Under the pieces are notes generated by a model that saw only the letters and a program-made list of their open reading frames with translations, did not search any database and was not told the DNA's origin. From Piedraia hortae CBS 480.64 (taxonomy: Eukaryota), in contig MU006000.1 in the NCBI GenBank assembly GCA_010093745.1, forward strand, positions 1 through 64,000: a stretch of DNA of 64,000 bases, written 5' to 3'. Shown piece after piece: positions 1,439-58,483 of this stretch. A program made the translations under genes and the position numbers. Every line of letters begins with the position of its first letter. The stretch's first letter is position 1.

Positions 1439-3906
1439 ATGGACCAGTTGCGGCCAAAGTCGTTCGATAAACTGGAGGAGACAAATGGAGAGCTGAAGCA
1501 CAAGTCAGATGGCGAAGCTGAGGCGTTGGACGACCCGGCTAATCGTCCAGCCGCAACGGAGAAGGAAAGCCAGTCATGAGAAGCGTATTATAAACCTCAG
1601 CGCCCAAGTCCGTTAACGCCAGTTTGGACGTTGGATTTCAGAAAAACATGAACGGGTTGCTTGAGAAGGAGAACAAGGAATTGGCCGATCAGCTCAAAAC
1701 GCTGACAGAGAGCCCTGACGCAGAAGCTGCGACAGCTTATAACACTGTCAAAGCAGACTCAGAGGCAGTGATAGAGGAAAGGAACACACGGATAAATAGG
1801 GCAGATGAACTACGCACGTGGCTGCGCAATGCCCAAGATGCTCTTAAAAATTATGCTAAGGAGAAGGCCAAGACTGTGCAGATCAAACAGATGCTCGCTG
1901 AGATTGAGCAGTTCAAGAAGGAAAAGGCCGCAACTCCCGGCTCAAGACCGGACGATTCTCAGCTTGGGCAGGAGCTGAAACGTGTGCAGCAAGCGTTAAA
2001 CGGACAGCAAGAACAGCTTAGTTTCGCGGTGGCTAGAACCCAAGCCCTGCGTGAGGCCAAACAGATATTGGAGACTGAGATTATGCGGATGACAGAGAAG
2101 TTGGACCAGGCTAAGGTGTACGTTTTGGATCTAGAGCTGAAAAGTTCTCAGGCAGAGGAGGCAGCTAACGCGGCGCGTCAAGCCTTGTGCGACCAAAAAG
2201 AACAGCTAAAAATTGAATCAGACGGAAAGACGGCTACCCAAAGCGCCGAGGTGGAGAGCTCAAGGGCACAAGCTGCGAACGCACAGAAGAAAGCGGCTGA
2301 GCTGCATAACAGGGTCAACTAGCTCACCGAGGAGATATGTCGCGTCAGAGCAAATTTGAGGATCAGAAAAAGGAAAACGCAAAAATCACCTCGAAGAGCA
2401 ACGGGTTGCTTGCCGAGAATGAACGGCTGAAGGAGAATTGCGACAAGGTTGCCAAACGCTCAGATGGAGGTGACAAGCTGATTGAGCAGCTTCGCGAAGC
2501 CAAAGATCGGCTTAAAAAGGGAGAAGAAACGACTGCTGCGATGACGAGGAAGGTCAGCGTTTGCTCGCTGACCATGGGACATTAGAAGCCGAAAATGCTG
2601 TGATTGCCGAGAAGTTGAGAAAATCTCAAACTACGATAGTAGGTCTGAAAAAGCAGCTATATCGGAACGCAAGCGTGCGACAGACGCAGTTGCTGAGAAA
2701 TCCGAGGCTGACGTCCGGTCTCGTCTAGCAGATCAGATCAGCAGGAGCGCAACACCAAGCTTGAAGCAGACAACAAGCGCCTGGCAGCTGAGGGCAAACT
2801 ACGCAAGGAAGGCAAGGATCGCGCAATTGCTCGAGCCACCACGCCAGAGAGCGAAGCAAAAGAGGAGGCAGCTGTGCTTCAGAACAAGGTCGACAAGCTG
2901 ACCGAGAAGATATGCAGCTCCAGAGAGACCTCGAGGGTCAAAAGAAGAAAAACGAAGAAATCGCTGTAAGTCATAAGGAGCTGCTCCCCGAAAATGGACG
3001 TCAGAGAGAAAATCGCGACAAGGTCGCCAGGTGCTCAGACGAAGATAACAAGTTCACTGAAGAGCGTTGTGAGGCCAAGGATCGGTTTCAAAGGATTGCT
3101 GCTGAGATGACGGAAAGCCGGTGTTTGCTTGCTCTCAATGAGGCGTCTGAAGCCGAAAAGGCAGACGCCGTTGAGAAGCTGAGCGAAGTCCAGACTGACA
3201 TGGCAGATCTGGGAGAGCAGCTCACGTCGTAGTGCAAGCGTTTGGCAGACCCCGTTGCTGCCGCCGAGCAGACTGCCAGTGACATCCGGCCTCGGCTTGC
3301 GGATCAGCAGGAACGCAACGCCAAGTTCGAAACAAGCGGTAAGCGCCTGGCTGCCGGAAACAAACAACTCGAGGAAGGCAAATATCGTGCCATCGCTCAA
3401 GTCACAACAGCTAGGAGCGGAAATCTTGAGGTCATAACGCAACTCAGGATCAAGGCAGACACTCTTGAAGCTCGTGTGCAAGACACTGCCAGAGAACTGG
3501 ACACTGCGAGGGCAGATCTCAGAGTCCGAGATAATACCATCGCCCATTTAAACCTGCGCAAATAAGAGGAGCGGAATCGCATCACGAAACTCCGGGAGGA
3601 GCTCAAGGCATTAAAAGAACACGCCGACAAGTATGAGCTTAAGATGGACGCGGTTGAAGATAATATAGCCAACCTGCAAAGGGAGAAGGTCACCCGAAGC
3701 AAAATCAAGACCAAGTTATGAGGTGGGTCGCGGAACAGAAGAAGGACAGCGACATGGTGCAAGCCAAAATTGAGAGTATGAAGAGGGACAAGGCGCAAGT
3801 CGCAAAGTACATTGCAAAACTGGGCAAACAAAGCATGGAGCTGAAGAAGTTGATACTCGAAGGTCCGGTATTTTCCTATGTACGGCATAGTCTCGTTTCT
3901 TTTTAA
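1439..3906 (+). pseudogene. Decayed long coiled-coil protein gene with internal ~575-bp duplication
   Basis: Consecutive E/K/Q/A/L-rich heptad ORFs (1624-2322, 2337-2585, 2912-3232, 3242-3565, 3718-3906) are broken by stops and frameshifts with no splice signals to bridge them. 2305-2880 is homologous to 2881-3430. Confidence 0.7.
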
Positions 3907-4722: not shown

Positions 4723-4872
4723 AATAATGCGTGTAGTATATCGCATCTTCGCAACATGGAGGATGTGTCACGTAATGATCATGAACAACGTACCCTCATG
4801 TATTCAGTATAGATACCTATACAAATATTCAAGTCTCAGTGTACTCACACTATCAGTTTGTCCCCTTTAACT
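4723..4872 (+). repeat. Dispersed repeat, probably LTR-derived; homologous to reverse complement of 39375-39727
   Basis: Blocks gatgtgtcacgtaatgatcatgaacaacgtaccctc and gtctcagtgtactcacactatcagtttgtcccctttaact match the reverse complement of 39630-39666 and 39375-39415. Confidence 0.7.
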
Positions 4873-16954: not shown

Positions 16955-17933
16955 CTAGAGGACCATATCCTCGTCTTCATCCTGCGGTTTACTGTTCGCA
17001 GCGTCCCAGTAATCGGCCATTTCGGCGTCGAGTTCTTGCTCCGTCTTCATCGGTCGACGTTCCTGTCCCTGATTCCGTCCATGACCCCGTCCTCCTCGCG
17101 GCCGTCTAAGCGGCGATCTCGACCGCGAGAAGTTTTTTCGGGGCACATAGCGATCGATGTTCCTCCCGCGCGGCAGATCCATCCTCTCAAACAGACTACG
17201 TTGAGGGCGTTCCCTAGCGCGACCCACCGGTCCCGTCGGGACGATGGTGATGCTTATCGGCTGTCCATTGGCGTTTTGTCCGTCAAAGTCCGCCATGGCG
17301 GCACGCGCATCCCGCGCATCGTCGTAAGTCACAAAAGCCGTGCCTTCGCTACGGTCCTGTCGGTCATACATCAACCGCACCGACCGCACGGGGCCCTTGC
17401 GCTCGAACAATCCCTACAAATGTCAACACTTCCCCCCATGAGAGCTCTTGCACTCAAATACATACGCGCAACTCGTCCTCGGTAAGATCATAATGGATAT
17501 TATCGACGCGCAGCTTCGTCCCGTAGTCTTCCTCCTCCCTCCGCCGTCGGCTCGGGCGCTGCTCGAATCCATACGGACTAGGGCGGCGACGGGGGTACTG
17601 CTGCTGTTCATCGAAGCGGTCGTGGACCCAGTCGCTAGATTCCCCGTCAGTCCTGTTGTTACATACAGATCAACCGGTGACCAACTTACGAGTCCAAGTC
17701 CATCCGTTCCTCGCGGTTCTGTCCGTGTTAGTGTTTCCATTCTCCCGGGCTGGTTAAGGCGCTTCGGCGCGTGCCTTGCGGTGGTAAAAGTCGTCCCGGC
17801 GCGGTCGCATCGGTCCTCGTGCCTGGTAGCCTCCTCGACGGGGTGCACCGGCCTGTGAATAACTGTTAGTGTGGATCGGTTGCCGACGGATGGAGAGACC
17901 AACAGAGATAATCTCGTCTAGACTGCGGTCCAT
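16955..17933 (-). CDS. Yra1/ALYREF-like RRM mRNA export adaptor (introns 17853-17903, 17719-17774 GC-AG, 17635-17689, 17414-17465)
   Basis: N-terminal MDRSLDEII, DWVHDRF motif, RRM (KLRVDNIHYDLTEDEL...RSEGTAFVTY) and C-terminal KTEQELDAEMADYW; all four introns join in frame. Confidence 0.85.
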
Positions 17934-20297
17934 AGCAATATTTGTTGCTGTTGTTGTGGCTGCTGCGCTGATCGTCGCAGATGCGAGCCATGTGGGTAGG
18001 GCCTGTGGTTGGTGGGAAATTCTCGGGGCGTATGCAGACATAAAACGGTTGCTGACTCAGCATTCTGTCTGCCTGGGCGTCTGGCGTGTCGCTAGGGCCT
18101 TTGCTCTGGCGACCACGCTCGAGAATTTGGCCTACTGATGGCAATTGCCAGTATTCGGCGAAGATAGTGGACTTAGAGATAGGCATTGGGTCGATGGTCA
18201 ATGGCCATTGGCCATTGGCAAGTAACTTGGCTGCAACAGCAGCAGAGATAACTATGGACAACATGACTAAGGAGCCGAAATCGCTCTTTTCCTTTCTCAG
18301 TTAACAACGGTTCGCGTGCTATTATATCAGCCGTGAGGAGTTTACAGTTTGTCGGATGTCCCTATGCCAACGAGCCACTTCCACTTGAGCACGGCAGAGA
18401 CGTTGTCGGTCCCTTAAAGTACCTGCAGAACATACATAAGCTTGAGCGAAACTTTGTTTCAAGTACGCCGTGGTACTCAAGGTTGAAACCCGCTCTACGG
18501 CCTCGAAGCCACCAACAAAGGCACTAATCGATTATGCCTATTCACTCTCAGCTCCATTTAATTGCCGTGGCAAGAATCTCTTTTTAACCCTTCCCTTTGC
18601 ATTGTCGGGAAAATTTCCACCAATGGCCAAAAGGTTCATGTTTACTCAGATGATCACGTTCATAATGATGAAGTCGAAGTGAAATATTCCAAACTTGATG
18701 TCACAGCAGAGCAAATTGTTCACAGGTCCATCGTTTTGGCCTGAATCAGTTCTATTCGCCAATGTGAAGGGGTTATGCCTGACATTTGACAAGTGGGAGT
18801 GGTTGTTCTCTTTTAACCGCAGCAATACATCAAAACACTGCGAAAACGAAGTTTACACATATTCAATCCCTAGCTTTTGAGTTGAGGATAGACTTAAAGT
18901 GTGGGAAGAGGTATAAAGTCAATCGCGTAAGCTTGCCAATTGAAGTTTAACCGTCATTGACAACTCTGGGTTAAAGCAAATTGAGCTCGTAGATTTTGGT
19001 TACCAAGTGATATACCCTTGACTAAATGCCCCGATGTGAAGGGCTTCTCGGGCAGGAAAACTCGTTGCAGCTGTGTGGCTCAACTTCACCAGGACACCTT
19101 GATTTAACCAACAGTATCGGCCAAACTGATGGAGGTCTGCCGGAGACATTGGTGTTGAATGCCACTCACTCAGCTCGACCATATGACAAACATATAGGCT
19201 GTAAAGTCATTCGCCCTGGATCACGGAAACCTCTGATTGGCCAGAAAACCCCGCCAGTCTCTGGAATCGATGCGGCAGGAGCAGATTTGCACACCCACTA
19301 GCGTCCGACAGTGACCGGTCGATCAACTCGACGTTATGAAGCCGGCAACCCACAAAAGAATGATCAAGCCATGGTAAAGATGTAATTACATGATGATTGG
19401 GCCGTCAGCAAGGCTCCGGCACGAAAATCTTGATGCCCCCACACGAAGACTCAACCTGAGCATCAAATCCGCTCGAGCCTGGCTCGAACATGCATGCTAA
19501 TGCGGTAAGAAATAGAGTGTCTACTTCTCAAGCCTGGCTCCCGGTTTCACATCGCGAGGCTCACGGTGGTGTCAAGCATCGTCACTAACGCGTATGCGGG
19601 ACATTGCGCAGCCACGCCTCGAAGATCAGCAACTGTATTGTCCTTCCTGAGATTTCCTCAAGATCAAGCTGCATTCGCCATGGGGAATGCGTCTTGCTGT
19701 TGTTGGTCATCCACGAACCAACATGATGTAAGGCTCGTATGTATGTCTCACTTGGGCAATATATATTCCCTGATGCTCCCTCGTGGAGGTACTCGAACCC
19801 ACCAGAAATACCTCTTTTTCATCGATCTCCATCTGTTGGTACTTCCTTTTAGCATAGTTCAGCCTTTGCACCCCACCCACAACATCGCCATCCAAGCTTC
19901 CAGTCCCTGCGCAATGCAGTCGCAAGAATGAAGCAAAGCATCGCCACCTCTGCAAAGCAACAGCGTATTTCCCAATGAAGAGTACCCACCCTACGAAATG
20001 CATTCTCAAGCACGAAAGCCCAAACGCGCGCTTTCGGAAGGATGATGACTGCATTGACCTTATCGCGGATGCCGCAGGTCACCCCCTCCCCCCCACCCCC
20101 TCCCAATTGCTTTTTATGGTGGCTTGGAACTAGTAAGCGGCTTTACAGCAACGTCCTGATCTCCCGAATGCTGATGAAGGCCTGTACATCAGTTGCCGCC
20201 CGTGGTGAAGCTGACATGCAATGTGGAAAAAGGAATTGAGTCGTCGGAGGGAATCGTCCCCGACCTGCGCTCGTTCCTCGGACTGAGTCCAGTAGTG

Positions 20298-28608: not shown

Positions 28609-31600
28609 TCAAACTTCCAACGAACAAACTAAACCTAAAACCCCGCCACCAATCAACGCCCTGGTCTCCCACCTATTTCGACTTATTTTCCTCCTCTCAA
28701 TCCTCTTCCTAAGCCGTCTGAGGTACTCCATCGCCTCCATCCTATCCTCACACCCATCAATCCATTTCTGCAAATGATCCGCCCCTCTCTTTTCTGCTTT
28801 TCTCTCAGCACTGACATCCTTCAACTGCCGCCTTTCCCGATTTAGATATTCACTCAACTTCTTCCTCGCCTCCTCCAACTTCTTCACCCGTTCTATTAAT
28901 CTTCCCTCCACCTTCTCTTTCTGCTGTTCTACCTTTTCCTTCTGCTGCTCCACTCTAACCTTCTGCATCCCCACCATCCCATTCATCTGCTCCAACTTCG
29001 CAAACGCAGCAAGACTGGAATCAAATCGAGTCTGCAGGCCTTCCAACATCCCCGCCCCTCTGCTGTTCACGAATAAGCACCTCGTTCAACATCCTCTTAG
29101 ACTCTTTCAACTTCTTCGACTCTTTCAGCCTCTGCAGCCTCTGGCGAAGACTCTTCTCCACCTTCTCCTTCTGCACCATCAATTTTGCATACGCCGCGTC
29201 ACTGGCCTTAAGCTGGGTGCGCATGGCTTTGGCGACTTCTTCACTCTCAGCTTTTAAAACGGCTAGTTCCTCCGGGATGAAACCCACTTAGGCTTGTGGT
29301 CTGTTCGCATCTGCGATCAGACCTCCATTCTCCGCCTCACGGGTGTTAATCTCCCTGATCTGGGCGCTTACGCAGTTATTCAGCTCCACAACCTTACTAT
29401 TCAGACGGGCAACCTCATCCGGATCATGAAACTCAACCGGAGATGTCTGCGCTCCCTTCGACACAATCTGTCTCGCTTTCGCTTTTGCGGTCTGTTCTTC
29501 AAGACTATTCTGCATCTCATCTACTTTCTTTTCAAGGGCCTCCTTCTCCAGCTTAAGTCTTTCTCTCTCGATCCTCGTATTCTGCAGTTCGCTGCTCTCG
29601 CGAGCGAGTCTCTTCTCTGTATCCGGTGGACGATTTGCTCAGACTCTGCCCCTGCTAGGCGAGAGGGGATGTAGCGGATTTCGTCGAATTGGGCTTGAAT
29701 TACTTTTCTCAGAGTGTGCGAGTCGGTTTCTTTGACCTGGAGTTGGGATGTTTTGAGCTGCGAGTTTTGATGCTTAGCACTTTGTTTTGAGTTCGTCTTT
29801 CAGCTTGTTGGCACTCACCTCGAGAGTCTCAGCGCGCCTGCGTTCCTCTTCGTGTAGGGCCGTGAGTCGTTGGACTTTGTTCGTAGCGGTCTGCATTTGC
29901 TCCGAGGCGGTTTTGAGTTTGGTGGTTTTACGACCAACTCTCCTCGAGCGTTGCGTGTTGGGGCTTGCCCATTCCGCACATTCTGTTCCAAGACTTGGGC
30001 TTGCTGGGTCAGCGTCGCGTGCGCTTGGATAAGTTTTTCGAGGAGCTGTTATACACTCGACCCGTTGGAGATTGCTTGATGCGCTTCTGTGCAGAGTTGT
30101 TGTTCGTTGGCTTGCTGCGCATGCAACTGGTTGGTTGCTTGTTGCTCCGTGGTGGTTAGCTACTGGCGCAGTCGGGTGTTTGCGTCGGTCATGTCTTGTT
30201 GTTGGGATTTTAAGTTGTTCAGTTCTCTTTGTGCGGTTTGTTGAATTTCACTCCGGTGTTGTTGCAGTCTTGTGATTTCGTCTGTTAGCTGCTGCTGCTT
30301 GGTTTGCTGTGCGCTAGACTTCTCGGATGCGGTCTTTTTGCTGGCTACTTTTTGTTCCTGTAGTTTAGTATTCTGGACGAGAAGGTCTTCTTGTTTGGTT
30401 TGCAGCGCGCTCAGTTCCATGATCGCGTCTTGGCGGCAGTCTTCCAACTGCTGTTGCAGTCTGTTGTTTTGTTCCGTCAGCTTCTGCAGCTGAGATCGCG
30501 ATACACTCGATGCTGTGTTTGCGGCTTGCTGGGCTTATGCCAGCTGCTGTTTTAGGCTGTTGTTTTCTCAATTAACTTCTGCTGCTCGGATCGCAGCGCG
30601 GTCAACTACGTGGACTTAGACTTTCCTCCAGCTGATATTGTTGCAGTCTGGCATTCTCCCTGGCTAGCTCTTGCTGCTGGGCTCTCAGCGCGCTTACTTC
30701 CGTGGATGTGGATTGCTGGGCTTGCTGGGCTTCTGCCTTTTGTTGTTGTTGCAGTCTGGCATTCTCCTCAACCAGTTCCTGCTCTTCGGTTCGCAGCTTC
30801 TCCAATTCCGTGGATGTGGATTTTTGGGCTTCTACGGCTTCTATAGTTTCTTTTCGCAGTTTACTGTTATCTATAGCCAGCTCCTGCAGTTGGGATTTCA
30901 CTCGGCGCTGTGCTTGCAGGTTTCTGGGCTTCTGCCAGCTGCTGCTGTAGTCTGGCGTTCTCTTCGGTTATGTCCTGCTGTTTAGAACGCAGCTCACTCA
31001 ATTTCCTAGGCGTGGTTTGTTGGACCTGTTGGGTTTGAGCCAGCTCTTGCTTCAATCTGGTGATCTCCTCAGTGAAGGGTTGCGTCACACTCGATTCAGC
31101 CCTTGAAGCTTGCTTGAGGGCTGTCAGCTGTTGGTCCATTATGGCCTGCCGCTTGTTCAGCCCCTTCCTCCCTAGCCTGTATCCTAGCTCTTTCCGTGGA
31201 CAAAGCATTCTGGGCATTCGTCTTTAGAGTTGCTCTTCTGGCATGGCCCAAGACCCGCTCTTTATGCTTAGCCACCAATTTATTCATTTTCCCAGATGAA
31301 ATTTCATCAGCATTTGCTTTGAAATGTTTTAGACCTTTATTCCCTTGCTCCAGGCCCCGCACTTTAAGCTCCACCGAATATATGTGCGTGGCTACGTCTT
31401 CTTTGAACCCTTGTCATCTTGCAGTATTCTATTCTCTTCAACGAGCCTCTGATGGTCAAGCTTCAGCGCATCCATCTCGATAGACGCAGCTTTTTTGGTC
31501 TCTTTTACTTGTTGCTGTAGCTTGGCGATCTCATTGAGCAGTGGCTTGATAGTGATGGTATGCTCTACATGCACACCCTTTTGTACTTCCGTTAGCTTCT

Positions 31601-31920
31601 GTTACAATTGCTCAACTTGCGCTCCTTTGCCCTCCAAATCGTGCCTTAGCGTAGATATTGTGGCCTCTGCAGCGGCAACTTGCACTCTGAGACCGCTTAT
31701 CTCTGGCTTCCTTTCATCTAGCTTCTCCTGGAGAGCACTCAATTTGTCGCGGAGTTTGCCCTCGCTGATTTGGCGGTTGATAAGAGACCTTTGGGATTTT
31801 TCATGCGCCTTTTCCAGGTTTGGGAAACGCTTCTGACTTTCCTCAAGGTCCTCTCTGAGCTCGCTAATGACCCTACCTCACTCTCTGTGCTCCGCAAGGG
31901 TGAGTTTGGACATCTGGAAA
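28609..31920 (-). pseudogene. Decayed Q/E/K-rich coiled-coil gene with internal tandem repeats
   Basis: Nine or more fragment ORFs in shifting frames; repeated L..LR..QQEL.EENARLQQ units at roughly 100-nt spacing within 30100-31050. Confidence 0.7.
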
Positions 31921-32327
31921 GGCTTGGAGGTTTGTGAAGAGGTACTTGCTGTTGGGAGCCACTTCTGTAGCTTTGCACAAGGTACCTTTGTTTATCTAGC
32001 TGGATGCGAACGACTGTGGGCTCACGAGAACGTATAAATTGAGGCCTAAGCTCTCGATATCGTAGCTTGGGTTACCGGGCCAATCAGTCTTTGTTCTCAT
32101 TGTCAAATGGCTTTTGTTTGTGGTCAAATTTTTTGTCTCGGCTTTGATGGCTTGAACATGACACCAGATCCAGGTAGATTATTACACTTCCCTGTGGAGA
32201 AGCCTTCCTTCCAGTTGTAATAGTTTTGGACAAAGACGTGTAGTTGGACAGATGATCAATTGTTTGTTTATTTGCTTGTCTTTGACAACATCGCTGCAAG
32301 CCTCACAACGCCAAGCAACATGACCAT

Positions 32328-32688
32328 TGTAGAGATTTAGCTCTCGTGGGTGAGAGTGCACAGCGACCCGAAGAGGACGGAGCGATAGACGGAATCAGGG
32401 ACAGGAAAGATGTAGATGTATGTGAGTCAAATACCAGTTGCAGTATGGTAGTGTGAATGACTATATTCAAAATGAGGGGACGTTCAGAATGAAAATTCTG
32501 TACCGGTGGGCCGGTGACGTCACGTCGTACACTAGCGGGGCGTATTCACCATGTCACATATGACATGACCCTGAGGGAAACCCTCTGTGAGGGAAAAACC
32601 TAGAATGCAGCTGGTAGTGTAGGAGGTATCGCTGACTTGCTATGCAAGTGCCCTGCATACGCGCTAGCGGCGATGCTTGAATCCAACA
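32328..32688 (-). mobile_element. Solo LTR (Ty1/copia-like), 361 bp, 5-bp TSD ACCAT
   Basis: Reads TGTTGG...CTACA on the minus strand; ACCAT on both flanks (32323-32327, 32689-32693); near-identical inverted copy at 55789-56147. Confidence 0.93.
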
Positions 32689-33121
32689 ACCATCCGCCAC
32701 AATACAGACAATAAGCTAAGTTGAACCAACATAACTTGTGGCAAGAACACCAACTATCCAACGAACTTGTGTAACACGATACCTTGAAGTAGACACGCCA
32801 TGCAAATACCAACCACATAAAGGGGCCTGATATCGTTGCCATGACATTAAATCCAGTTTCATATGTCGTTGCGATGACAGCTCGGCAGCAGGACGCACAG
32901 ACCTTATCTTGACGTTCAACATGACTGCTGTTAATCTACTGCCACGATACAGCAGAACCGTGATGCCGTACAGATAAAAAAACTAAGAATGAACTCCATT
33001 TGAATAGCTAAGGGGCTTGCAATGTGATAATAGTGAATCCTCCATAACCTGTCACAACAAGAACCACAGGGAAGACTCGTCACTGTCAATTTAAACCCTC
33101 TGTCACCGTACGAGTCATCAC

Positions 33122-34891
33122 TCACTCACTTTCACCTTCGCTTTCCTCCCCTTCGCTATCGCCATCATCTAGAACCCCAAAAGCGCCTGTACAGTCCCAC
33201 CTATCTCCCGGCGCAGCCTTAGACACATACTTTACAAACCTCATCGTCCCCCTATCCCTCAGCACAAGACTAAGCGTGTTCCAGCTCGCCGGGTAAGTAA
33301 ACAGAATTCCGTCGTCACCGTCATCATCAGCTTTGTATACTGCGGGATCGTTTTTCGCTTTGCGGGAAGTAGAGGGGCGATCGCCAGCGCCGGTGTGAGA
33401 CGAAGGACCCCCTTCAGCTCCCCCTTCGGCGTTTCCTACCTCATCAACCTCCTCGTCAGCGGCCATGTACATCTCGTACCCACCGACTTCTTGGCCTTTA
33501 TTGTCCCAGCCAGTGGTAGGCGTGAGGTTAAGAGTATATTCAAGGACTGTTTCCTCACTACCGTGGCGCTGAGCTAGCTGGTAGTCTAGTCCTCGGCGGA
33601 AGCGACGGGCAACGACGCACGCTTCATTCAGAGTCAAGTCAGTGGCATGGGAGAGCCACTTTTTAAACGGAAGCGAAGAGAGGAGATCTAACGCTTCTGT
33701 AAGAGGGGTTGCTGGGTCTTTTGAGTCTTGTAGGTCCTCGAGGGATATGTATTGGAAGCGGTGTTTGTATGGTGGGACAGCAACTTGCATGTTCGTCTCC
33801 TTGTTGTCGAGGGTTTGGATATAGGTTTTTAGTCTCTGGGCGAATGATGGGTTGAAAAACTCGGCTAATTGCACCGCGGAATCGTTAGTGAAGACTTCAG
33901 TGAGCTCGTCAACTGTGTCAGGTGTGAGATAACTGGGGGTCATGAATTTGCGGAGGTAGTCAAAGTCTAGCTCTGTAAAATCGACTCCCGGGCTGCCGCC
34001 TTGGGGTATAAAATAATTGATTCGCGGCTTTTCGAATCGTTCATCCTTGTTTTGTAGCTGGAGGAGTGAGCTTTCTAACGATAACTTCTCTTCCAAGCCC
34101 CGCTCATAGCCTTCTTCGCCTTCTTGCGGAACATGAAACCAGCCGCTGATTGCCATTCGCATTCTGTCTCCGTTTTCCCCGTGGTAGACCTCTTCTACAT
34201 CATGAAAGCTCTCGCCAGGCTGGACAGCAAAGAATGAGAGTTGATTCCACGCTGGTGGAATGGAAACTGTCCATTCTGGACTGGGGATCTTGTACGTTTT
34301 ACCGTCATCTCCGATCTTTTTATCAACAGGATACAAGCGCAGAGAGCCCCCGTATTTAGCTCCCCATTTGTCATCAGGATTAGTCAGATACAGAATGTAA
34401 CTGACCCGTCGACTGCCAATGACGTCGTCGTGGCAAAGTAAGTGGCAACCCGGTACGTAGATGTTGACAGCCATGTCGGTCTTTTGACCCGAAAGGGGCC
34501 CTGAACCCGACACTCGGGAAATCCAGTGTCTGAACTCTCGCGAGTATAGGGCATCTCGCAGCTTCAGCAGTGAAGGTAGTCGCTTCAATGCGGTTGGGTC
34601 CAGACCATCTAGGTTGGCCAAGTCGCCCGACTGGTGGATCTTGTATATGTCGGTTTCCTTCGGCGTAAAATGAATGTTCTGTAACACCTCATGACGAACG
34701 TTGCGTAGCAATGTATCATCTATAAGTTTGGAGACTACGGCATGCTTGTAGGGCTCAGATGCTGCATAGGAAGCTGCATAGTCCAGCACCGTCTTTTCAT
34801 CAAACAGACCGTCTGAGAAACGATGTTCAATAGACAAATCGACTGCTTTATTAGGTCTAGCTGGCTCCTCATCCTCAGTCTTGCGCTTCAT
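33122..34891 (-). CDS. TPA1: Prolyl 3,4-dihydroxylase Tpa1/Ofd1/OGFOD1
   Basis: FTPKETDIYKIHQSGDLANL, HLLCHDDVIGSRRVSYILYL, SFHDVEEV, RMAISGWFH, and a C-terminal domain with LRDRGTMRFVKYVS. Confidence 0.93.
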   Translation of the reverse strand: MKRKTEDEEPARPNKAVDLSIEHRFSDGLFDEKTVLDYAASYAASEPYKHAVVSKLIDDTLLRNVRHEVLQNIHFTPKETDIYKIHQSGDLANLDGLDPTALKRLPSLLKLRDALYSREFRHWISRVSGSGPLSGQKTDMAVNIYVPGCHLLCHDDVIGSRRVSYILYLTNPDDKWGAKYGGSLRLYPVDKKIGDDGKTYKIPSPEWTVSIPPAWNQLSFFAVQPGESFHDVEEVYHGENGDRMRMAISGWFHVPQEGEEGYERGLEEKLSLESSLLQLQNKDERFEKPRINYFIPQGGSPGVDFTELDFDYLRKFMTPSYLTPDTVDELTEVFTNDSAVQLAEFFNPSFAQRLKTYIQTLDNKETNMQVAVPPYKHRFQYISLEDLQDSKDPATPLTEALDLLSSLPFKKWLSHATDLTLNEACVVARRFRRGLDYQLAQRHGSEETVLEYTLNLTPTTGWDNKGQEVGGYEMYMAADEEVDEVGNAEGGAEGGPSSHTGAGDRPSTSRKAKNDPAVYKADDDGDDGILFTYPASWNTLSLVLRDRGTMRFVKYVSKAAPGDRWDCTGAFGVLDDGDSEGEESEGESE

Positions 34892-34945
34892 CTTGGTGGC
34901 AGCTGACCCCAAGAAAATTGGTAGTGCACAACAACGGAAAGCCGC

Positions 34946-34953
34946 TGACGTCA
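34946..34953. promoter_or_regulatory. CRE/ATF palindrome TGACGTCA in a 122-bp divergent promoter
   Basis: Perfect TGACGTCA centred between the TPA1 ATG (34891) and the MARVEL gene ATG (35014). Confidence 0.4.
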
Positions 34954-35013
34954 TAAGGCAGCCTCATACAAAACACCCAACACGCACCAAGCTGTCTAGC
35001 AGATATTAGCACA

Positions 35014-39374: not shown

Positions 39375-39727
39375 AGTTAAAGGGGATGGACTGATAGTGT
39401 GAGTACACCGAGACGTAAACATATATATTACGAGGCGGTGGCATAATGTCGATCCTTGCCGGTGCCTCGGCATGTCCATCGTATGATCGACATTTTTGTC
39501 GCTAAAAGATTAGTTGTTTTCTTGTATATAGTTCCGCCCGCCGGCTCGGGCGGGCAGTCGCGTTGTCTTTCTTTCATCGCTGTTTCCTGTCCACACCAGT
39601 GATATATATTAGTTAAAGGGGGGGCGAAACGAGGGGACGTTGTTCATAGTCATCACGTGACACATCATTCAACTAGAGCTGTTGTGCTCGTTTGGTAAAT
39701 CATGATGCGAATGATAAACGCTTAATT
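39375..39727 (-). repeat. Dispersed repeat homologous to 4723-4872, probably LTR-derived
   Basis: Two ~38-bp blocks nearly match 4762-4797 and 4833-4872; shares GAGGGGACGTT with the solo LTR (32474-32484). Confidence 0.65.
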
Positions 39728-52560: not shown

Positions 52561-53326
52561 GAACATGTACATTCATCAGTAGTAAGTCATGGTCTTGCAG
52601 AAGGTATTGAAGAAAAGGTTGTGTCAAGGTTGCCTAGATGTTACATATTGGATGCTCTATGTACATAAAGTCTTTACATTTCAAATTTGGAGAGTGGTCC
52701 TTGTAAATGAACGCTCACATTCAGTTCAAGTGAAGACTTGAAGTCTTGGATTATCAGTCACCATTCAATCCAGATTTCACATGAGAATAGAGACGATATT
52801 ACGCAGGTACCGTACCTGTACTAGTTAAGATATCGCGTATTAAACTCAGAGTCATCTGCTTACTTTTGTGGGGCGAGTGCCAAGCTTCATCTACAAGATT
52901 AATGTACAGGTGACATCATGCTGTCTCGGACCAAGCCACGTACGGTGTATATGACTATGGAAAGTATAAAAAACCCGATTTTTCCAAGCTGGATGGGCGA
53001 AAAGGTGTGAATACTCCAGATATTCCAGACTTGCCCGCAACGATGCACTCCGAAAAAGAGTGGACGGCTCCCCTAATTTCGCGTTGAATACTGCAAACAA
53101 ACATGCACATACTGTACGCCAACCAGGTCGCATAACGTAATTGAAGCCTTAAGACGACGCGAGAGAGTATGTGTGGAGGCGTGTGTGGCCATGCACGACG
53201 CAGCACACGATCATTCGCCCCCGGGGACAAGTAGGATGCTATCTGATCACACATAGAATATATTACCCCAGCAGCTCTGTACAATCACAGCAAACGCCAT
53301 CTAAGACTAACTGAAACCGATCTTTA

Positions 53327-53525
53327 ACAACGCGCTGAGGGAGAATGTCGATCTGGAAAGGAGAATATGGTATGGCGCTCTGCGCATTCGCGACTGGCTC
53401 TTCACCCCAGTCAAGGACCCATTTTGCACAACACTCCGGTAGAGAATGTCGATCTGGATAAAAGAACACGGTAGGGCGCTCTGCGCATTCACAATCAAGT
53501 CTTCACTTCAGACAACATTTCACAT
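53327..53525. repeat. Imperfect tandem repeat, two copies, 101-bp period
   Basis: gagaatgtcgatctgga...ggta(t/g)ggcgctctgcgcattc at 53341 and 53442. Confidence 0.8.
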
Positions 53526-54748: not shown

Positions 54749-55446
54749 AGTAGTGGCATACTGAATTCTTCTCTTACCCTCCCGTAACAGAAAGAGACTT
54801 GGTACAATGCACCTACCATGCATGATTTGGCTGGGGAAATGCGAAGCTGCAAGTGCAATACCAAGGCGTCGCTTTTAATGGGTATGAAATTATGCGTGAG
54901 AAGTATTAGATGAAGACCGAGGTGTAATATTGAAGCGTTTGAGATGAGCGAGGTCAGAATGTAGACCTATAAGGAGAGAAGTAGCAGGACCTAGTGCGAA
55001 GATGCGGTAGCCGGGGAGTCAAGTATATGAACATGCTAGAGTGAGGTAGATTCAGAGGGTCTGATGTTAATACCTATCGCAGTTCACGATTTCACAGTAT
55101 AGGTACTAAGGAATCGAATGCCAAGCTTGAAGCGAACCGGGCCGCCGTTGTATCTGAGCGTATCCATTGATGTGGGGCAGCATTGGAACTCCAAGGTTTC
55201 GTTTATCAGCCCAGTGACTCGACTATCTGAGATGAGATGTCAATTCATCAGCCTAGCCAGAATTAGTGTTCCCCGAAAATGAGATTTGAAAAACATAATT
55301 GGATCTCAAAAGGAGCCACACCCTACCGCATGGGAGTTGAGAACATTCCCTGGCAGGAGTGGTAGAAAAGCAGGGAGTGTATTATCCCCTTTGCCGATTG
55401 CCGCGATTTTGCGCCATAACACCCATATAATTGACCCTTTTAGCCG

Positions 55447-57270
55447 TTAAGCAACATCCATCTTCCACTTCATGTCGTCCTTTCCATTCCGGGAGTACAA
55501 GGCGATCAAAGATCGCTTGAGCTTAAGATTCTTGTATTGAGAGTCACTCCTTTCTCTTTCCACGTCCCTCTCAGATCTATTCGAACCGCCAGGGGTTGGG
55601 AAGTTGGGCTGGGCATATTGGTGTGATCCCGCACGACCATGCTGATAGGAGGTGACCTCCCGTTGATCTCGGTCACGCTCTCTCTCCCTTTCCCTAGGAG
55701 TGGATTCTCGGTTCACTGTATCTGTGGTTTGGGCCGGGGCGGGGCGGTAGTTTTCATGATCCGCGGAGCTTGGGGCATACCTAGAATCTGTTGGATTCAA
55801 GCATCGCCGCTAGCGCGTATGCAGGGCACTTGCATAGCAAGTCAGCGATACCTCATACACTACCGGCTGCACCCTAGGTTTTTCCCTCATAGAGGTTTTC
55901 CCTCAGGGTCATGTCATATGTGACATGGTGAATGCGCCCCGCTAGTGTACGACGTGACGTCACCGGCCCACCGGAACAGAATTTTCATTCTGAACGTCCC
56001 CTTATTGAAAATAGTCAGTGACACTACCATACTGCAACTGGTATTTTGACTTACATACATCTACATCTTTCCTGTCTCTGATTCCGTCTATCGCTCCGCC
56101 CTCTTCGGGTCGCTGTGCACTCTCACCCACGAGAGCTAATATCTACAGAATCCCGTGGTGGATGCGAAGGATTCCGCGAATGCTCTCTGGGATGGTGGTC
56201 CCGATCCTGTCCGGCAAGTGAGGGGGCAGCAATATACAAATCCCTAGGAGCGGATTGCTGGGGAAAAGCAGGGGGAGTGCCGTAGGTTCCGCCAGGGTAG
56301 GCCTGTTCCGGGCGGGAAGTCATTCCGGGGGGGTAGAAAACCTGTCCTGGAGCTTGAGCGGGATGTCCTGGCGGCTGGGCGCGTTGTCCTGCAGTTTGGG
56401 CATAATGTCCTGGCGGCTGAGGATGGTATCCTGGCGGCTGGGGATTGTATCCTGGCGGATGGGGGTTGTATCCCGGCGGCTGGGGGTTGTATCCTGGCGG
56501 ATGGGGGTTGTATCCCGGCGGCTGGGGTTGGTATCCGGACGGCTGTAGCGGCTGGGCATAAGGTCCTACTGGTTGAGCGTTATATCCCGGGAGCTGGGTG
56601 CGGGATCCTGGCGGCTGGGCGAGCTGTCCTGGCGATTGTAACGGTTGGGTAGGGTGTCCTAAAGGTTGAGGGTTATATCCTGGAGGGGCCTGATATGGGT
56701 AGTTGGGCCTGTAAGATGGATCCGAGTAGGGTGACTGACGGGAAGGCCAAAACTCCTCAGGACGACCAACAACTGGCGTGACTAGAGTCTGGCAACTTCG
56801 ATCATCGAAGCGCGGTGATTCCTCCCGACGGGCGTCTATTCTCTTCTTGGAGTCATGATATGTGCTCGAACCTACGTAGTCATCGTCTACGGATAGTTAG
56901 TGGCCCAGAGCATGGGCGGTGGAGATATGACGCACTTCGTCTGCCGCGCCGCTGTTCTGCCCTCCACTTGGCAGAATCTGCACGAAGGTCCTCGACCATA
57001 GCCTAGAGGGTTAGTTTGGTGGCAGAGTACTCTGCACTGTGCATACAGATGTCAGGTTACGGTAGGCCTTGATCCAGTACCCATGGATACCCTGTCAACA
57101 TGTCAGCAAATGCCTGAACTTGCAAGAGTGCTAACCTCATATTCGCCGGTGCCAATTCCCGGGCGCACTGTCGCATCGTCTCCCAGGTATCGCTGAATGT
57201 CACCAGATATCACAATGCGGTCGATTCCTTCGCCGGGTACAAACCACTGGTGCAATTTGAACTTGGACAT
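55447..57270 (-). CDS. RfeG-like protein, interrupted by a solo LTR (introns 57092-57135, 57003-57046, 56887-56935)
   Basis: Spliced MSKFKLHQWFVPGEGIDRIVISGDIQRYLGDDATVRPG...GYWIKAYRNLTSAMVEDLRADSAKW matches the fungal RfeG N-terminal pattern. The current product would stop at 56123 inside the LTR. Confidence 0.8.
55789..56147 (+). mobile_element. Solo LTR (Ty1/copia-like), 359 bp, 5-bp TSD GAATC
   Basis: TGTTGG...CTACA; GAATC at 55784-55788 and 56148-56152; near-identical to the reverse complement of 32328-32688. Confidence 0.93.
56345..56690 (-). repeat. 21-nt coding tandem repeat encoding QPPGYNP heptads
   Basis: Repeated cagccgcc(a/g)ggatacaacccc units in the RfeG-like reading frame. 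Confidence 0.85.
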
Positions 57271-57482
57271 GCGGAAGTCCTGAGAGTGTCCGAATATGCG
57301 GGCTGCAAAAAAGTCCTGGAAACGATGATGCCCAACGTTAACGGCGTCTCCAACGACGGTCTGTGCAGAATCACGTGGAGACAAAGGATAAAGGCCAGAA
57401 AGGCTTCTTATATTTACAGTGGCGCTGCAGCCCAACGCTAGGCTCCGGGCAGCCCGACGTCGCACACGCAAGGCTGGTCGAC

Positions 57483-58483
57483 TTAGAAGCAAAACACCAT
57501 GTCCTCCCTCTTGCTTACCGGCCGCGCCTTGTCGTAGCCTAGCGTCTCGGTCGCCTTCTTCATCGCGCTCACCATTGGTGGCGGGCCGCAGACCAGGATC
57601 TGTACATCCTTGGCCGGCGCCGGCAGCTTTTCCTTGATCATCTCGGGGCTGACGAATCCCACCCCGCCTTTCCAACCCTGTGGCGGATTGTTTAGCACAT
57701 AGTACACGTCAAAATTGGCGTCTTGCTGCTCTAATTGGCGCAGCTCGTCCTGCAGCAGTATATCCTCTGGATTGACGTTGGCAAAAATAAGGTTAATCTG
57801 GGTGCGGTCGCCTCTGCTGCGTCTTCTCAGCACAGCGCGGATAATCTGCAGCATGGGAGTGATGCCCGTACCACCGGCAATCATGCCAAATGCGCGAACC
57901 ATGTTGGGCGTGTAAACCATGGCGCCCTTGGGGCCCTTGACCTTGATCGTGTCCCCAAAGTTCAGGGTAGTTAGGTGGCGGCTGATATTACCTGTCGGGT
58001 AAGACTTGATGAGCAGGTCAAAGTATCCGGGCGTGGTGTCTGAGCTGATTGGGGTGTAAGAGCGGACAACTTCTTTGCTCTCCACTGCGCCGGTCTTGGG
58101 ATCGGTGACATTGAGCACAGCCGCGACGGAAATGTGCTGGCCAATAGGCAGGCCGAGGATGCTGTTTGCTGAAGGCAGTTTGAAGCGATAGATGGCCGTG
58201 TTGTGGGATATGGCCGTCTTCTCAGCCAGAGGGAAGTTGGCATATTTGGTGGGATCCAACACCTTTTTAGGTCCTGCATCCCGCTCGTTAGCAGTGGGAC
58301 ACGGTCACGGCGCAGTTGTTGACACCCACGATTGGACACGAACTGAAAGGCTCCTAAGGCAACAGCAACAGCTACGGCAATGGGCACAAATGACGGCTTG
58401 ACGGCAGCAGACACGGCAACGAGGGCAGTCGAGGGTACATAGACACCCCAGACGAAGCGTGGGGAGGTCAATGTAGAAGCCAT
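57483..58483 (-). CDS. CBR1: NADH-cytochrome b5 reductase 1 (intron 58274-58329)
   Basis: N-terminal TM anchor, [33 protein letters not shown], ending VFCF. Confidence 0.93.

What the first reader, a model, noticed from the sequence alone, without database searches (positions are those of the whole stretch)
55447..57270. Solo LTR inserted in the last coding exon of an otherwise intact RfeG-like gene
Seen: on the minus strand the exon reads CCA CGG GAT TC|TGTAGA...LTR...CCAACA GATTC|T AGG TAT GCC. Removing the LTR and one GATTC gives P-R-D-S-R-Y-A in frame and fuses ORF 56123-56323 to ORF 55447-55800. The upstream exons have no stops or frameshifts. As it stands, the protein ends 7 codons into the LTR (SVDISSRG*) and loses about 110 aa including an RE/RD-rich tail, while a TTG in the LTR end is in frame with the orphaned tail. 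Inference: a fairly recent antisense insertion followed by LTR-LTR recombination created a truncated or split allele.
Basis: partly seen in the sequence, partly recalled or inferred. Interest (0 to 1): 0.7.

Follow-up and report, generated by a model that had tools for sequence, protein, structure and literature searches.

The report
Solo LTR truncating a fungal RfeG-like gene
A leftover 359-base piece of a jumping gene sits inside the last coding exon of a fungal regulator-like gene, so its expressed messenger RNA now carries an early stop and the protein should lose its last quarter; this is real but an ordinary kind of event.

Summary
A 359-bp element (56147 to 55789 on the minus strand, TGT...ACA ends) is flanked by a perfect 5-bp duplication, GATTC. 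A 94.5% identical second copy at 32328-32688 has its own duplication, ACCAT. In DNA run X1, 43 contigs leave the element at the same end base into unlike flanks. It interrupts exon 4 of a four-exon gene. The first ~78-95 residues of that gene are 61-69% identical to three proteins that public sources name RfeG. A spliced RNA contig confirms all three introns, and another RNA contig runs from the exon across the junction and the new stop. The reading frame ends after seven LTR-encoded codons, giving 336 aa against 440 aa without the element. The orphaned 112-codon stretch is in frame, open (P about 0.003 in shuffles) and has normal codon usage, but no homologue was found anywhere. The "antisense" orientation cannot be told. 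"Recent" is not shown. A "split allele" started from TTG is implausible in a eukaryote, because the only in-frame ATGs lie in the last ten codons. A collapsed full-length element in this short-read assembly is not excluded. This is a new member of a known kind, of low to moderate interest.

The parts
57136..57270 (-). Exon 1 of the RfeG-like gene (ATG at 57270-57268, 45 codons)
   Evidence: Sequence read. It is 100% identical to the first 45 residues of public protein P0001 and 73-79% identical to the other seven hits, three of them named RfeG. The following intron, 57135-57092, is skipped in a spliced X2 contig (table 5).
57047..57091 (-). Exon 2 (15 codons)
   Evidence: X2 joints 57090->57135 and 57001->57046 have CT..AC ends, which is GT..AG on the minus strand. 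The spliced frame is open.
56936..57002 (-). Exon 3 (67 bases)
   Evidence: X2 joints 57001->57046 and 56886->56936. The frame is kept across them.
56148..56886 (-). Exon 4 up to the insertion: a Pro/Gln/Gly/Tyr-rich low-complexity region that includes a 21-bp tandem array at 56343-56545
   Evidence: Open frame. Tandem array. X2 contigs lie on 56617-56886, 56517-56646 and 56110-56333 with no joint inside.
56148..56152 (-). Target-site duplication, copy 1 (GATTC on the minus strand)
55789..56147 (.). Solo LTR, 359 bp, TGTAGA...CCAACA when read on the minus strand; its transcriptional direction is undetermined
   Evidence: The ends are fixed by the second copy and by 43 X1 contigs and 25 X2 contigs that leave the element at 55787-55789 (table 7). 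No Rfam family and no tRNA were found.
56123..56125 (-). New stop codon TGA supplied by the LTR, after seven LTR-encoded codons
   Evidence: It is contained in RNA contig X2 record 13.
55784..55788 (-). Target-site duplication, copy 2 (GATTC)
55447..55783 (-). Orphaned former C-terminal coding stretch: an Arg/Glu/Asp-rich part, then a basic end, and the old stop TAA at 55449-55447
   Evidence: It is in frame with exon 4. A frame open for 112 codons had P = 0.0032 in shuffles. Its codon-usage score of 14.7 lies within that of in-frame pieces of other genes and is reached by 3 of 214 out-of-frame pieces. It is covered by X2 contig record 9. No homologue was found.
32328..32688 (+). Second solo copy of the same LTR family (361 bp), with its own duplication ACCAT at 32323-32327 and 32689-32693

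Best explanation
An LTR retrotransposon integrated into the last coding exon of a fungal RfeG-family gene and duplicated the 5-bp target GATTC. The window most likely comes from Piedraia hortae CBS 480.64, because exon 1 is 100% identical to a protein of that strain. Only one LTR is now present in the assembly. The usual cause is recombination between the two LTRs of the original element (inferred). The gene is still transcribed and correctly spliced (shown). Its messenger RNA runs from exon 4 into the LTR (shown). The reading frame therefore closes after seven LTR-encoded codons (shown). The predicted product is 336 aa instead of about 440 aa. It keeps the conserved N-terminal ~95-residue RfeG domain and the Pro/Gln/Tyr-rich middle, and it loses a 111-residue Arg/Glu/Asp-rich, basic tail. 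That tail was real coding sequence before the insertion, as inferred from frame, openness and codon usage. The named RfeG relatives are only 212-254 aa long and share nothing with this gene beyond the N-terminal domain. The shortened protein is therefore probably still functional and is not a null (inferred). The tail is most likely untranslated now, as part of a long 3' UTR or as sequence downstream of a new 3' end inside the LTR (inferred).
For: LTR nature:
- TGT...ACA ends and perfect 5-bp duplications at 2 of 2 copies in the window.
- The two copies are 94.5% identical.
- 43 X1 contigs and 25 X2 contigs leave the element at its terminal bases, 55787-55789, into unlike flanks (table 7).
- No Rfam or tRNA match.

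Gene identity:
- 8 of 15 candidates scored E<=0.01 with exon 1. They include a 100% match named Piedraia hortae CBS 480.64 and three proteins named RfeG.
- The spliced protein matches those three at 61-69% identity over 78-95 residues, E 3e-35 to 3e-37.

Expression and splicing:
- One 787-base X2 contig skips exactly 57135-57092, 57046-57003 and 56935-56887 with GT..AG ends. No such joints occur in DNA run X1 (table 5).

Junctions:
- X2 record 13 covers 56110-56333, with 38 letters in the LTR and 0 differences.
- X1 record 7 covers 56118-56474, with 30 letters in the LTR.
- X1 record 1 and X2 record 9 cover 55000-55815, with 27 letters in the LTR (table 8).

The tail was coding:
- It is in frame.
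- A frame open for 112 codons occurred in 0.32% of 20000 shuffles.
- Its codon log-likelihood is 14.7, against 12.6 +/- 5.3 for 107 in-frame pieces and -2.2 +/- 6.1 for 214 out-of-frame pieces, of which 3 reach it. Its two other sense frames score 2.8 and 0.6.
- With a stop penalty, its antisense frames and the flank beyond TAA all score negative.
Against: - No homologue of the tail was found: none of 2395 candidates, 0 of 1.84 billion representatives, nothing in the ESM Atlas and no Pfam family. The tail therefore has no comparative support, and the RfeG relatives found show no similarity to it.
- X1 may be the data the assembly was built from, so it is not independent.
- Contigs break inside the repeat, so nothing shows that a single LTR, and not a whole element, lies between the junctions.
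- The published assembly of this strain is Illumina-only: 270-bp fragments plus a 4.5-kb mate-pair library, assembled with AllPathsLG (Supplementary Table 5 of PMC7082219).
- The in-frame comparison pieces come from the same ORFs that trained the codon table.
- No protein-level or functional data exist for either form.
Confidence: 0.85

Rival explanations
1. The locus really holds a full-length LTR retrotransposon (LTR, internal region, LTR), and the short-read assembler collapsed its two near-identical LTRs into one. The gene is interrupted at the same base with the same seven extra codons, but no LTR-LTR recombination has happened.
For: The published assembly of the strain named used only Illumina 270-bp fragments and a 4.5-kb mate-pair library with AllPathsLG. 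All contigs of X1 and X2 that enter the LTR from the flanks stop after 27-38 letters. The reads seen here therefore cannot tell one LTR from two.
Against: The window has no N and no gap. Mate pairs of 4.5 kb would not join the two flanks across an element of typical size, so a gap or a break would be the expected outcome (inference). The LTR in the window carries its own variants relative to most other copies (table 3), which suggests it was resolved as a specific copy. No internal retrotransposon sequence lies anywhere in the 64-kb window.
Confidence: 0.07
2. The LTR is removed from part of the messenger RNAs as a new intron, from donor GTGAGA at 56126 to acceptor TCTAG ending at 55781. This takes out the LTR's own stop and keeps the frame, so a near full-length protein with the old tail is still made.
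For: A GT..AG pair at those places keeps the frame. A script join gave one open frame of 446 codons with only a terminal stop. Donor and acceptor look no worse than those of the gene's three confirmed introns. The tail frame is still intact.
Against: No joint from about 56127 to 55780 is listed for X2. X2 contigs read straight through both proposed splice sites: record 13 down to 56110, and record 9 up to 55815. The nearest branch-point-like CTGAC lies about 60 bases before the acceptor, against 12-15 bases in the three real introns. At 346 bases the intron would be seven to eight times longer than the real ones.
Confidence: 0.04
3. The downstream open stretch was never part of the protein. 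On this view the element landed in or next to an intron or near the natural end of the gene, and the 112 open codons are chance.
For: No homologue of the tail exists in any library searched. A donor-like GTATGC begins three bases after the insertion point, at 55780. Known RfeG proteins are short, at 212-254 aa.
Against: The upstream frame has no stop before the LTR, so before the insertion it must have run on into the downstream flank. That flank is open for 112 codons (P = 0.0032) with codon usage typical of genes and unlike its other frames. The X2 contig over 55000-55815 shows no skip after 55780.
Confidence: 0.04

Closest known systems
Solo LTRs of fungal Ty3/gypsy- and Ty1/copia-type retrotransposons, for example those of fission yeasts described in bioRxiv 10.1101/2022.12.06.519325 (passages read)
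   Same: A short terminal inverted repeat TGT...ACA, a length of a few hundred bases (392-407 bp there, 359-361 bp here) and a perfect 5-bp target-site duplication. Solo copies far outnumber whole elements in that paper (63 solo LTRs against 4 intact and 15 degenerate elements).
   Different: No full-length parent element has been seen for this family. Its superfamily, its PBS and PPT, and its direction are therefore unknown. This copy lies inside a coding exon, not between genes.
Solo-delta insertion alleles of Saccharomyces cerevisiae such as lys2-128delta and his4-912delta (recalled from memory; a search for them found no paper in the library)
   Same: A single LTR left inside or just before a gene changes its product or its transcription, while the rest of the gene stays intact.
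   Different: Those are 5'-end insertions selected in the laboratory that abolish expression. Here the insertion is at the 3' end of a natural gene, and it leaves the conserved domain and the expression in place.
RfeG-named proteins of Pleosporales (P0003, P0006, P0007; names given by their sources)
   Same: An N-terminal domain of about 80-95 residues that is 61-69% identical, followed by a Pro/Tyr/Gln/Ser-rich low-complexity region.
   Different: They are 212-254 aa long against 336 aa now and about 440 aa before the insertion. They have no heptapeptide array and no counterpart of the Arg/Glu/Asp-rich tail. No Pfam model covers the family. The 'Rfe' label goes back to Aspergillus genes that raise FLO11 expression when expressed in yeast. 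I saw this stated only for RfeC (PMC9769893, passages), not for RfeG.

Membership tests
LTR retrotransposon (solo LTR) | Ends 5'-TG...CA-3' forming a short inverted repeat | tested here: met
   TGTAGA...CCAACA, that is TGT...ACA, in both window copies.
LTR retrotransposon (solo LTR) | Perfect target-site duplication of fixed length (4-6 bp) that differs between copies | tested here: met
   GATTC/GATTC at this copy and ACCAT/ACCAT at the second: 2 of 2 copies, 5 bp each.
LTR retrotransposon (solo LTR) | Dispersed multi-copy family with the same boundaries | tested here: met
   Two copies lie 23 kb apart in the window. 43 X1 contigs and 25 X2 contigs leave the element at 55787-55789 into unlike flanks, with flank agreement of 0.37-0.53 (table 7). 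The other end is less sharply marked, because contigs diverge 8-11 bases before it.
LTR retrotransposon (solo LTR) | A full-length element with the same LTRs around gag-pol, with a primer-binding site and a polypurine tract | not testable with these tools
   No whole genome is held. No internal element sequence lies in the window. The single read-laying run gave only consensus loose ends.
LTR retrotransposon (solo LTR) | U3-R-U5 organisation, which defines sense or antisense relative to the gene | tested here: inconclusive
   The motif scan found no TATAAA on either strand. It found only TATGTA (56057) and AATAAG (56006) on the gene's strand. No transcript ends are available from contigs.
RfeG protein family (as named in public records) | Conserved N-terminal domain | tested here: met
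   61-69% identity over 78-95 residues to three RfeG-named proteins, E 3e-35 to 3e-37.
RfeG protein family (as named in public records) | Curated profile (Pfam) match | tested here: not met
   No Pfam family for exon 1, exon 4 or the tail at E<=1, and '-' for all eight hits. No curated model appears to exist, so this does not count against membership.
RfeG protein family (as named in public records) | Regulatory activity (raising FLO11 expression, or acting as a transcription factor) | not tested
   No functional data. In the papers read, only a knock-out strain is listed (PMC10449517, Table 1 passage).

The most novel reading that the evidence does not exclude
The LTR has become a facultative intron. 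Its own GTGAGA overlaps the new stop codon, and a TCTAG acceptor lies at the duplicated target. Splicing between them would remove the LTR in frame, so one LTR-interrupted exon would yield both a short and a near full-length RfeG-like protein. That would make the element a switch, not just a lesion, and would explain why the tail frame is still intact.
Probability: 0.04. Interest if true: 0.6.

Novelty: new member of a known kind. Interest (0 to 1): 0.25.

Why it matters
This is a clean, RNA-supported example of a retrotransposon remnant reshaping the 3' end of an expressed regulator-like gene. The host has the smallest genome and gene set among 101 sequenced Dothideomycetes (16.95 Mb, 7,572 genes; PMC7082219, passages). 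It shows that the public 128-residue model of this gene is wrong. It gives a natural truncation for asking what the fast-evolving tails of RfeG proteins do. It also defines an abundant, apparently uncatalogued LTR family whose copies could be used as strain markers. It does not reveal a new mechanism.

Tried and rejected
- Whole-genome search for other LTR copies and a parent element: no genome is held.
- Orthologue test of the tail:
  - The search for homologous proteins with the tail, longer proteins: none of 2395 candidates.
  - The same tool with exon 4, similar lengths: none of 1161 candidates.
  - Exhaustive phmmer of the tail against 1.84 billion representatives: 0 hits.
  - ESM Atlas: no usable hit.
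  - Pfam: nothing.
  - All three homologous-protein searches are spent, so closer (Capnodiales) RfeG proteins could not be fetched.
- Empty site: no contig in X1 or X2 joins 55783/55788 to 56148/56152. Contigs show presence, not absence, and both runs match the window without differences in the unique flanks. They are probably the same strain, so this says nothing about other isolates.
- RNA holders: no listed holder is on record as RNA. X2 is only guessed to be RNA by the tool; its spliced contig shows that it holds cDNA of this gene.
- Contig depth figures (1388-2603 upstream of the LTR, 222.6 over the tail in X2) cannot rank parts of a gene. I draw no conclusion from them about termination in the LTR. 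The X2 contig over the tail also runs on into the convergent neighbouring gene, and contigs carry no strand.
- Direction of the LTR from the loose-end consensus letters (table 7) and from promoter or poly(A)-like motifs: no TGG-type primer-binding site and no clear polypurine tract next to either end. This stays undecided.
- An intron starting at the GTATGC just after the insertion: no skip in the X2 contig.
- tRNA- or SINE-like origin, or a known RNA: 0 Rfam matches and 0 tRNAs.
- Weak blastn hits of the LTR at 17060-17098 and 19572-19607 (82-84% over 37-39 bases): no repeat structure lies around them, so I take them as chance.
- Earlier findings of this scan: nothing for this genome or this sequence.
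- Literature on RfeG: of 36 papers holding the term, the 15 listed were mostly unrelated acronyms, and only a strain-table entry was relevant.
- Searches for published solo-LTR-in-exon cases gave no directly comparable paper.

Full report
**1. The observation**

On the minus strand the sequence reads ...CCA CGG GAT TC|TGTAGA...CCAACA|GATTC T AGG TAT GCC.... A script recomputed the coordinates.
- The element runs from 56147 down to 55789 and is 359 bp long.
- GATTC lies at 56152-56148 and again at 55788-55784.
- The upstream frame continues for seven codons into the element (V-D-I-S-S-R-G) and ends at TGA 56125-56123.
- GAT is a codon in both flanks. The downstream stretch 55785-55447 (112 codons, then TAA) is therefore in the frame of the upstream exon.

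**2. The element is mobile, with LTR hallmarks**

The repeat finder reported 5 inverted pairs in the window. Three of them (I1, I2, I4) together form one second copy of the element.
- That copy lies at 32328-32688 on the + strand. It is 361 bp long and 94.5% identical over 362 columns, with 16 substitutions and 4 gap columns.
- It begins and ends with the same bases and has its own perfect 5-bp duplication, ACCAT.

The two public runs that hold the locus were laid on 55000-57600.
- In X1, 6+13+24 = 43 contigs match the element up to 55787-55789 and then continue into unlike sequence. In X2, 4+8+13 = 25 contigs do the same. Flank agreement is 0.37-0.53 (table 7).
- The family is therefore dispersed in many copies and ends exactly where the duplication says it does.
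- At the other end the contigs diverge 8-11 bases early, because the first bases vary between copies, as they do in the window's second copy.

No Rfam family (E up to 1) and no tRNA was found.

These features match fungal LTRs as described for fission yeasts (passages of bioRxiv 10.1101/2022.12.06.519325): TGT...ACA ends, a few hundred bases, a 5-bp duplication and many copies.

What is missing is the parent element.
- No genome is held, and no internal retrotransposon sequence lies in the window.
- The superfamily and the direction of the LTR, and hence the word 'antisense', remain open.
- A motif scan gave no TATA box on either strand. It gave only TATGTA (56057) and AATAAG (56006) on the gene's strand.

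**3. The gene**

The gene has four exons: 57270-57136, 57091-57047, 57002-56936, and 56886 onward. The frame was checked and gives 336 aa as the gene stands.

One 787-base contig of run X2 skips exactly the three predicted introns (49, 44 and 44 bases, GT..AG on the minus strand). DNA run X1 shows no such joint (table 5). X2 therefore contains cDNA of this gene, and the gene is expressed and correctly spliced.

Exon 1 found 8 proteins with E<=0.01 among 15 candidates.
- One is 100% identical, a 128-aa model named Piedraia hortae CBS 480.64, which identifies the likely source organism.
- Three are named RfeG (Pleosporales, 212-254 aa).

The spliced protein matches those three at 61-69% identity over its first 78-95 residues (E 3e-35 to 3e-37). 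Nothing beyond that survives composition correction. No Pfam model exists for any part.

The 'Rfe' label goes back to Aspergillus genes that raise FLO11 expression in yeast. In the papers at hand I saw this only for RfeC (PMC9769893, passages). For rfeG I saw only a knock-out strain in a table (PMC10449517).

**4. The insertion lies in coding sequence, and the tail was coding**

The upstream frame has no stop before the LTR, and the RNA contigs show no joint between 56886 and 56148. Before the insertion, the frame must therefore have continued into the downstream flank.

That flank behaves like coding sequence.
- It is open for 112 codons, which occurred in 0.32% of 20000 shuffles. As a background figure, 8.7% of all codon positions in the six frames of this gene-dense window have 112 open codons ahead.
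- I built a codon table from 15 other open frames of at least 300 codons (8137 codons, with this locus left out).
- With that table the tail scores 14.7, and its other two sense frames score 2.8 and 0.6.
- By comparison, 107 in-frame pieces of the same length score 12.6 +/- 5.3. These pieces come from the training frames, so they are not independent.
- 214 out-of-frame pieces score -2.2 +/- 6.1, and 3 of them reach the tail's score.
- With a stop penalty, the antisense frames, the 336 bases beyond TAA and the LTR itself all score negative.

Against this stands a complete lack of homologues.
- None of 2395 candidates.
- None among 1.84 billion representatives.
- Nothing in the ESM Atlas.
- No similarity to the RfeG-named relatives.

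Because the C-terminal halves of those relatives are themselves not alignable to this gene, the orthologue test is uninformative here. It is not negative.

**5. State of the locus in reads**

- The gene-to-LTR junction is carried by X2 record 13 (56110-56333, 38 letters in the LTR, 0 differences) and by X1 record 7 (56118-56474, 30 letters in the LTR).
- The LTR-to-tail junction is carried by X1 record 1 and X2 record 9 (55000-55815, 27 letters in the LTR) (table 8).
- By the tool's 31-letter rule only the first of these four counts as a bridge. The others stop where a 31-mer graph would break on entering a repeat.
- The RNA contig contains the new stop, so the truncated frame exists in messenger RNA.
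- No contig crosses the whole LTR.
- The published assembly of the named strain was made from Illumina 270-bp fragments and 4.5-kb mate pairs with AllPathsLG (Supplementary Table 5 of PMC7082219).
- A full-length element collapsed to one LTR therefore cannot be excluded. I rate it at about 7%, because the window has no gap and the copy carries its own variants (table 3).

**6. Age**

- At 8 of 359 places, 84-100% of the X1 contig depth reads another letter than this copy. At 2 more places, 57-75% does (table 3; 16 places are listed in all).
- Depth sums are not copy numbers, so this is rough. Still, the copy is not a fresh replica of the family majority.
- With about 2-3% drift, the chance that 336 neutral bases have gained no stop is well above one half (my estimate). 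The intact tail therefore does not prove recency.
- Both runs match the unique flanks without a difference and are probably the same strain, so nothing is known about other isolates.

**7. How it most likely works**

- Shown: the insertion with its duplication, intact and spliced upstream exons, a transcript running into the LTR, and a stop after seven LTR codons.
- Inferred: a full element first, then LTR-LTR recombination.
- Inferred: a 336-aa product that keeps the only conserved part of the family and is longer than its named relatives, so it is probably still active.
- Inferred: the tail is now untranslated.

A separate product started at the TTG is unlikely. The organism is a eukaryote, and the tail frame has no ATG before its last ten codons.

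I also examined a more exotic reading, in which the LTR is spliced out in frame between GTGAGA at 56126 and TCTAG ending at 55781.
- The frame fits.
- But the X2 contigs read through both sites and no such joint is listed.

**8. Verdict**

This is a real, well-delimited solo-LTR-type insertion in the last coding exon of an expressed RfeG-family gene. It is a new member of a known kind of event. Interest is low to moderate (0.25). It is useful for correcting the public gene model, for defining an LTR family, and as a natural truncation allele.

The decisive follow-ups are:
- a PCR product or long read across the site in this and other isolates;
- full-length cDNA;
- a search of the whole assembly for the parent element.

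Noticed in passing
window 32323-32693: A second solo copy of the same LTR family (361 bp, + strand, duplication ACCAT). It lies between the ends of two minus-strand open frames (about 30867-32071 and 33122-34963), so it is intergenic. It differs from the exon copy by 9 transitions, 7 transversions and 4 gap columns.
   Followed up: partly
window 56680-57270 (minus strand): The public 128-aa protein model for this gene (P0001) disagrees with the spliced RNA contig. It lacks the first eight codons of exon 2. It also ends in another frame near 56684, through an intron that the X2 contig over 56617-56886 does not show.
   Followed up: partly
window 56343-56545: A 21-bp tandem array of about ten units encodes a Pro-Pro-Gly-Tyr-Asn-Pro-Gln/His heptapeptide repeat in exon 4. 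The RfeG-named relatives have no such array.
   Followed up: no
window 4762-4872 and 39375-39666: Another dispersed repeat in inverted orientation (83-89% identity over 36 and 54 bases). The two pieces are adjacent in one copy and about 200 bases apart in the other. It could be a second mobile-element family.
   Followed up: no
window 56121-56126 and 55781-55785 (minus strand): A donor-like GTGAGA overlaps the LTR-supplied stop, and an acceptor-like TCTAG lies at the duplicated target. Together they would remove the LTR in frame. No such joint was seen in the RNA contigs.
   Followed up: partly
window 2275-3419; 53316-53517: An internal duplication of about 580 bases at 68% identity (2275-2853 against 2851-3419), and a 101-bp unit repeated twice at 72% identity (53316-53517). 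Both are probably repeats within coding regions of neighbouring genes.
   Followed up: no
window 57483-57540: The spliced RNA contig of the RfeG-like gene runs upstream to 57540. That is past the stop of the preceding same-strand open frame (57483-58304), so either the two transcripts overlap or there is read-through.
   Followed up: no
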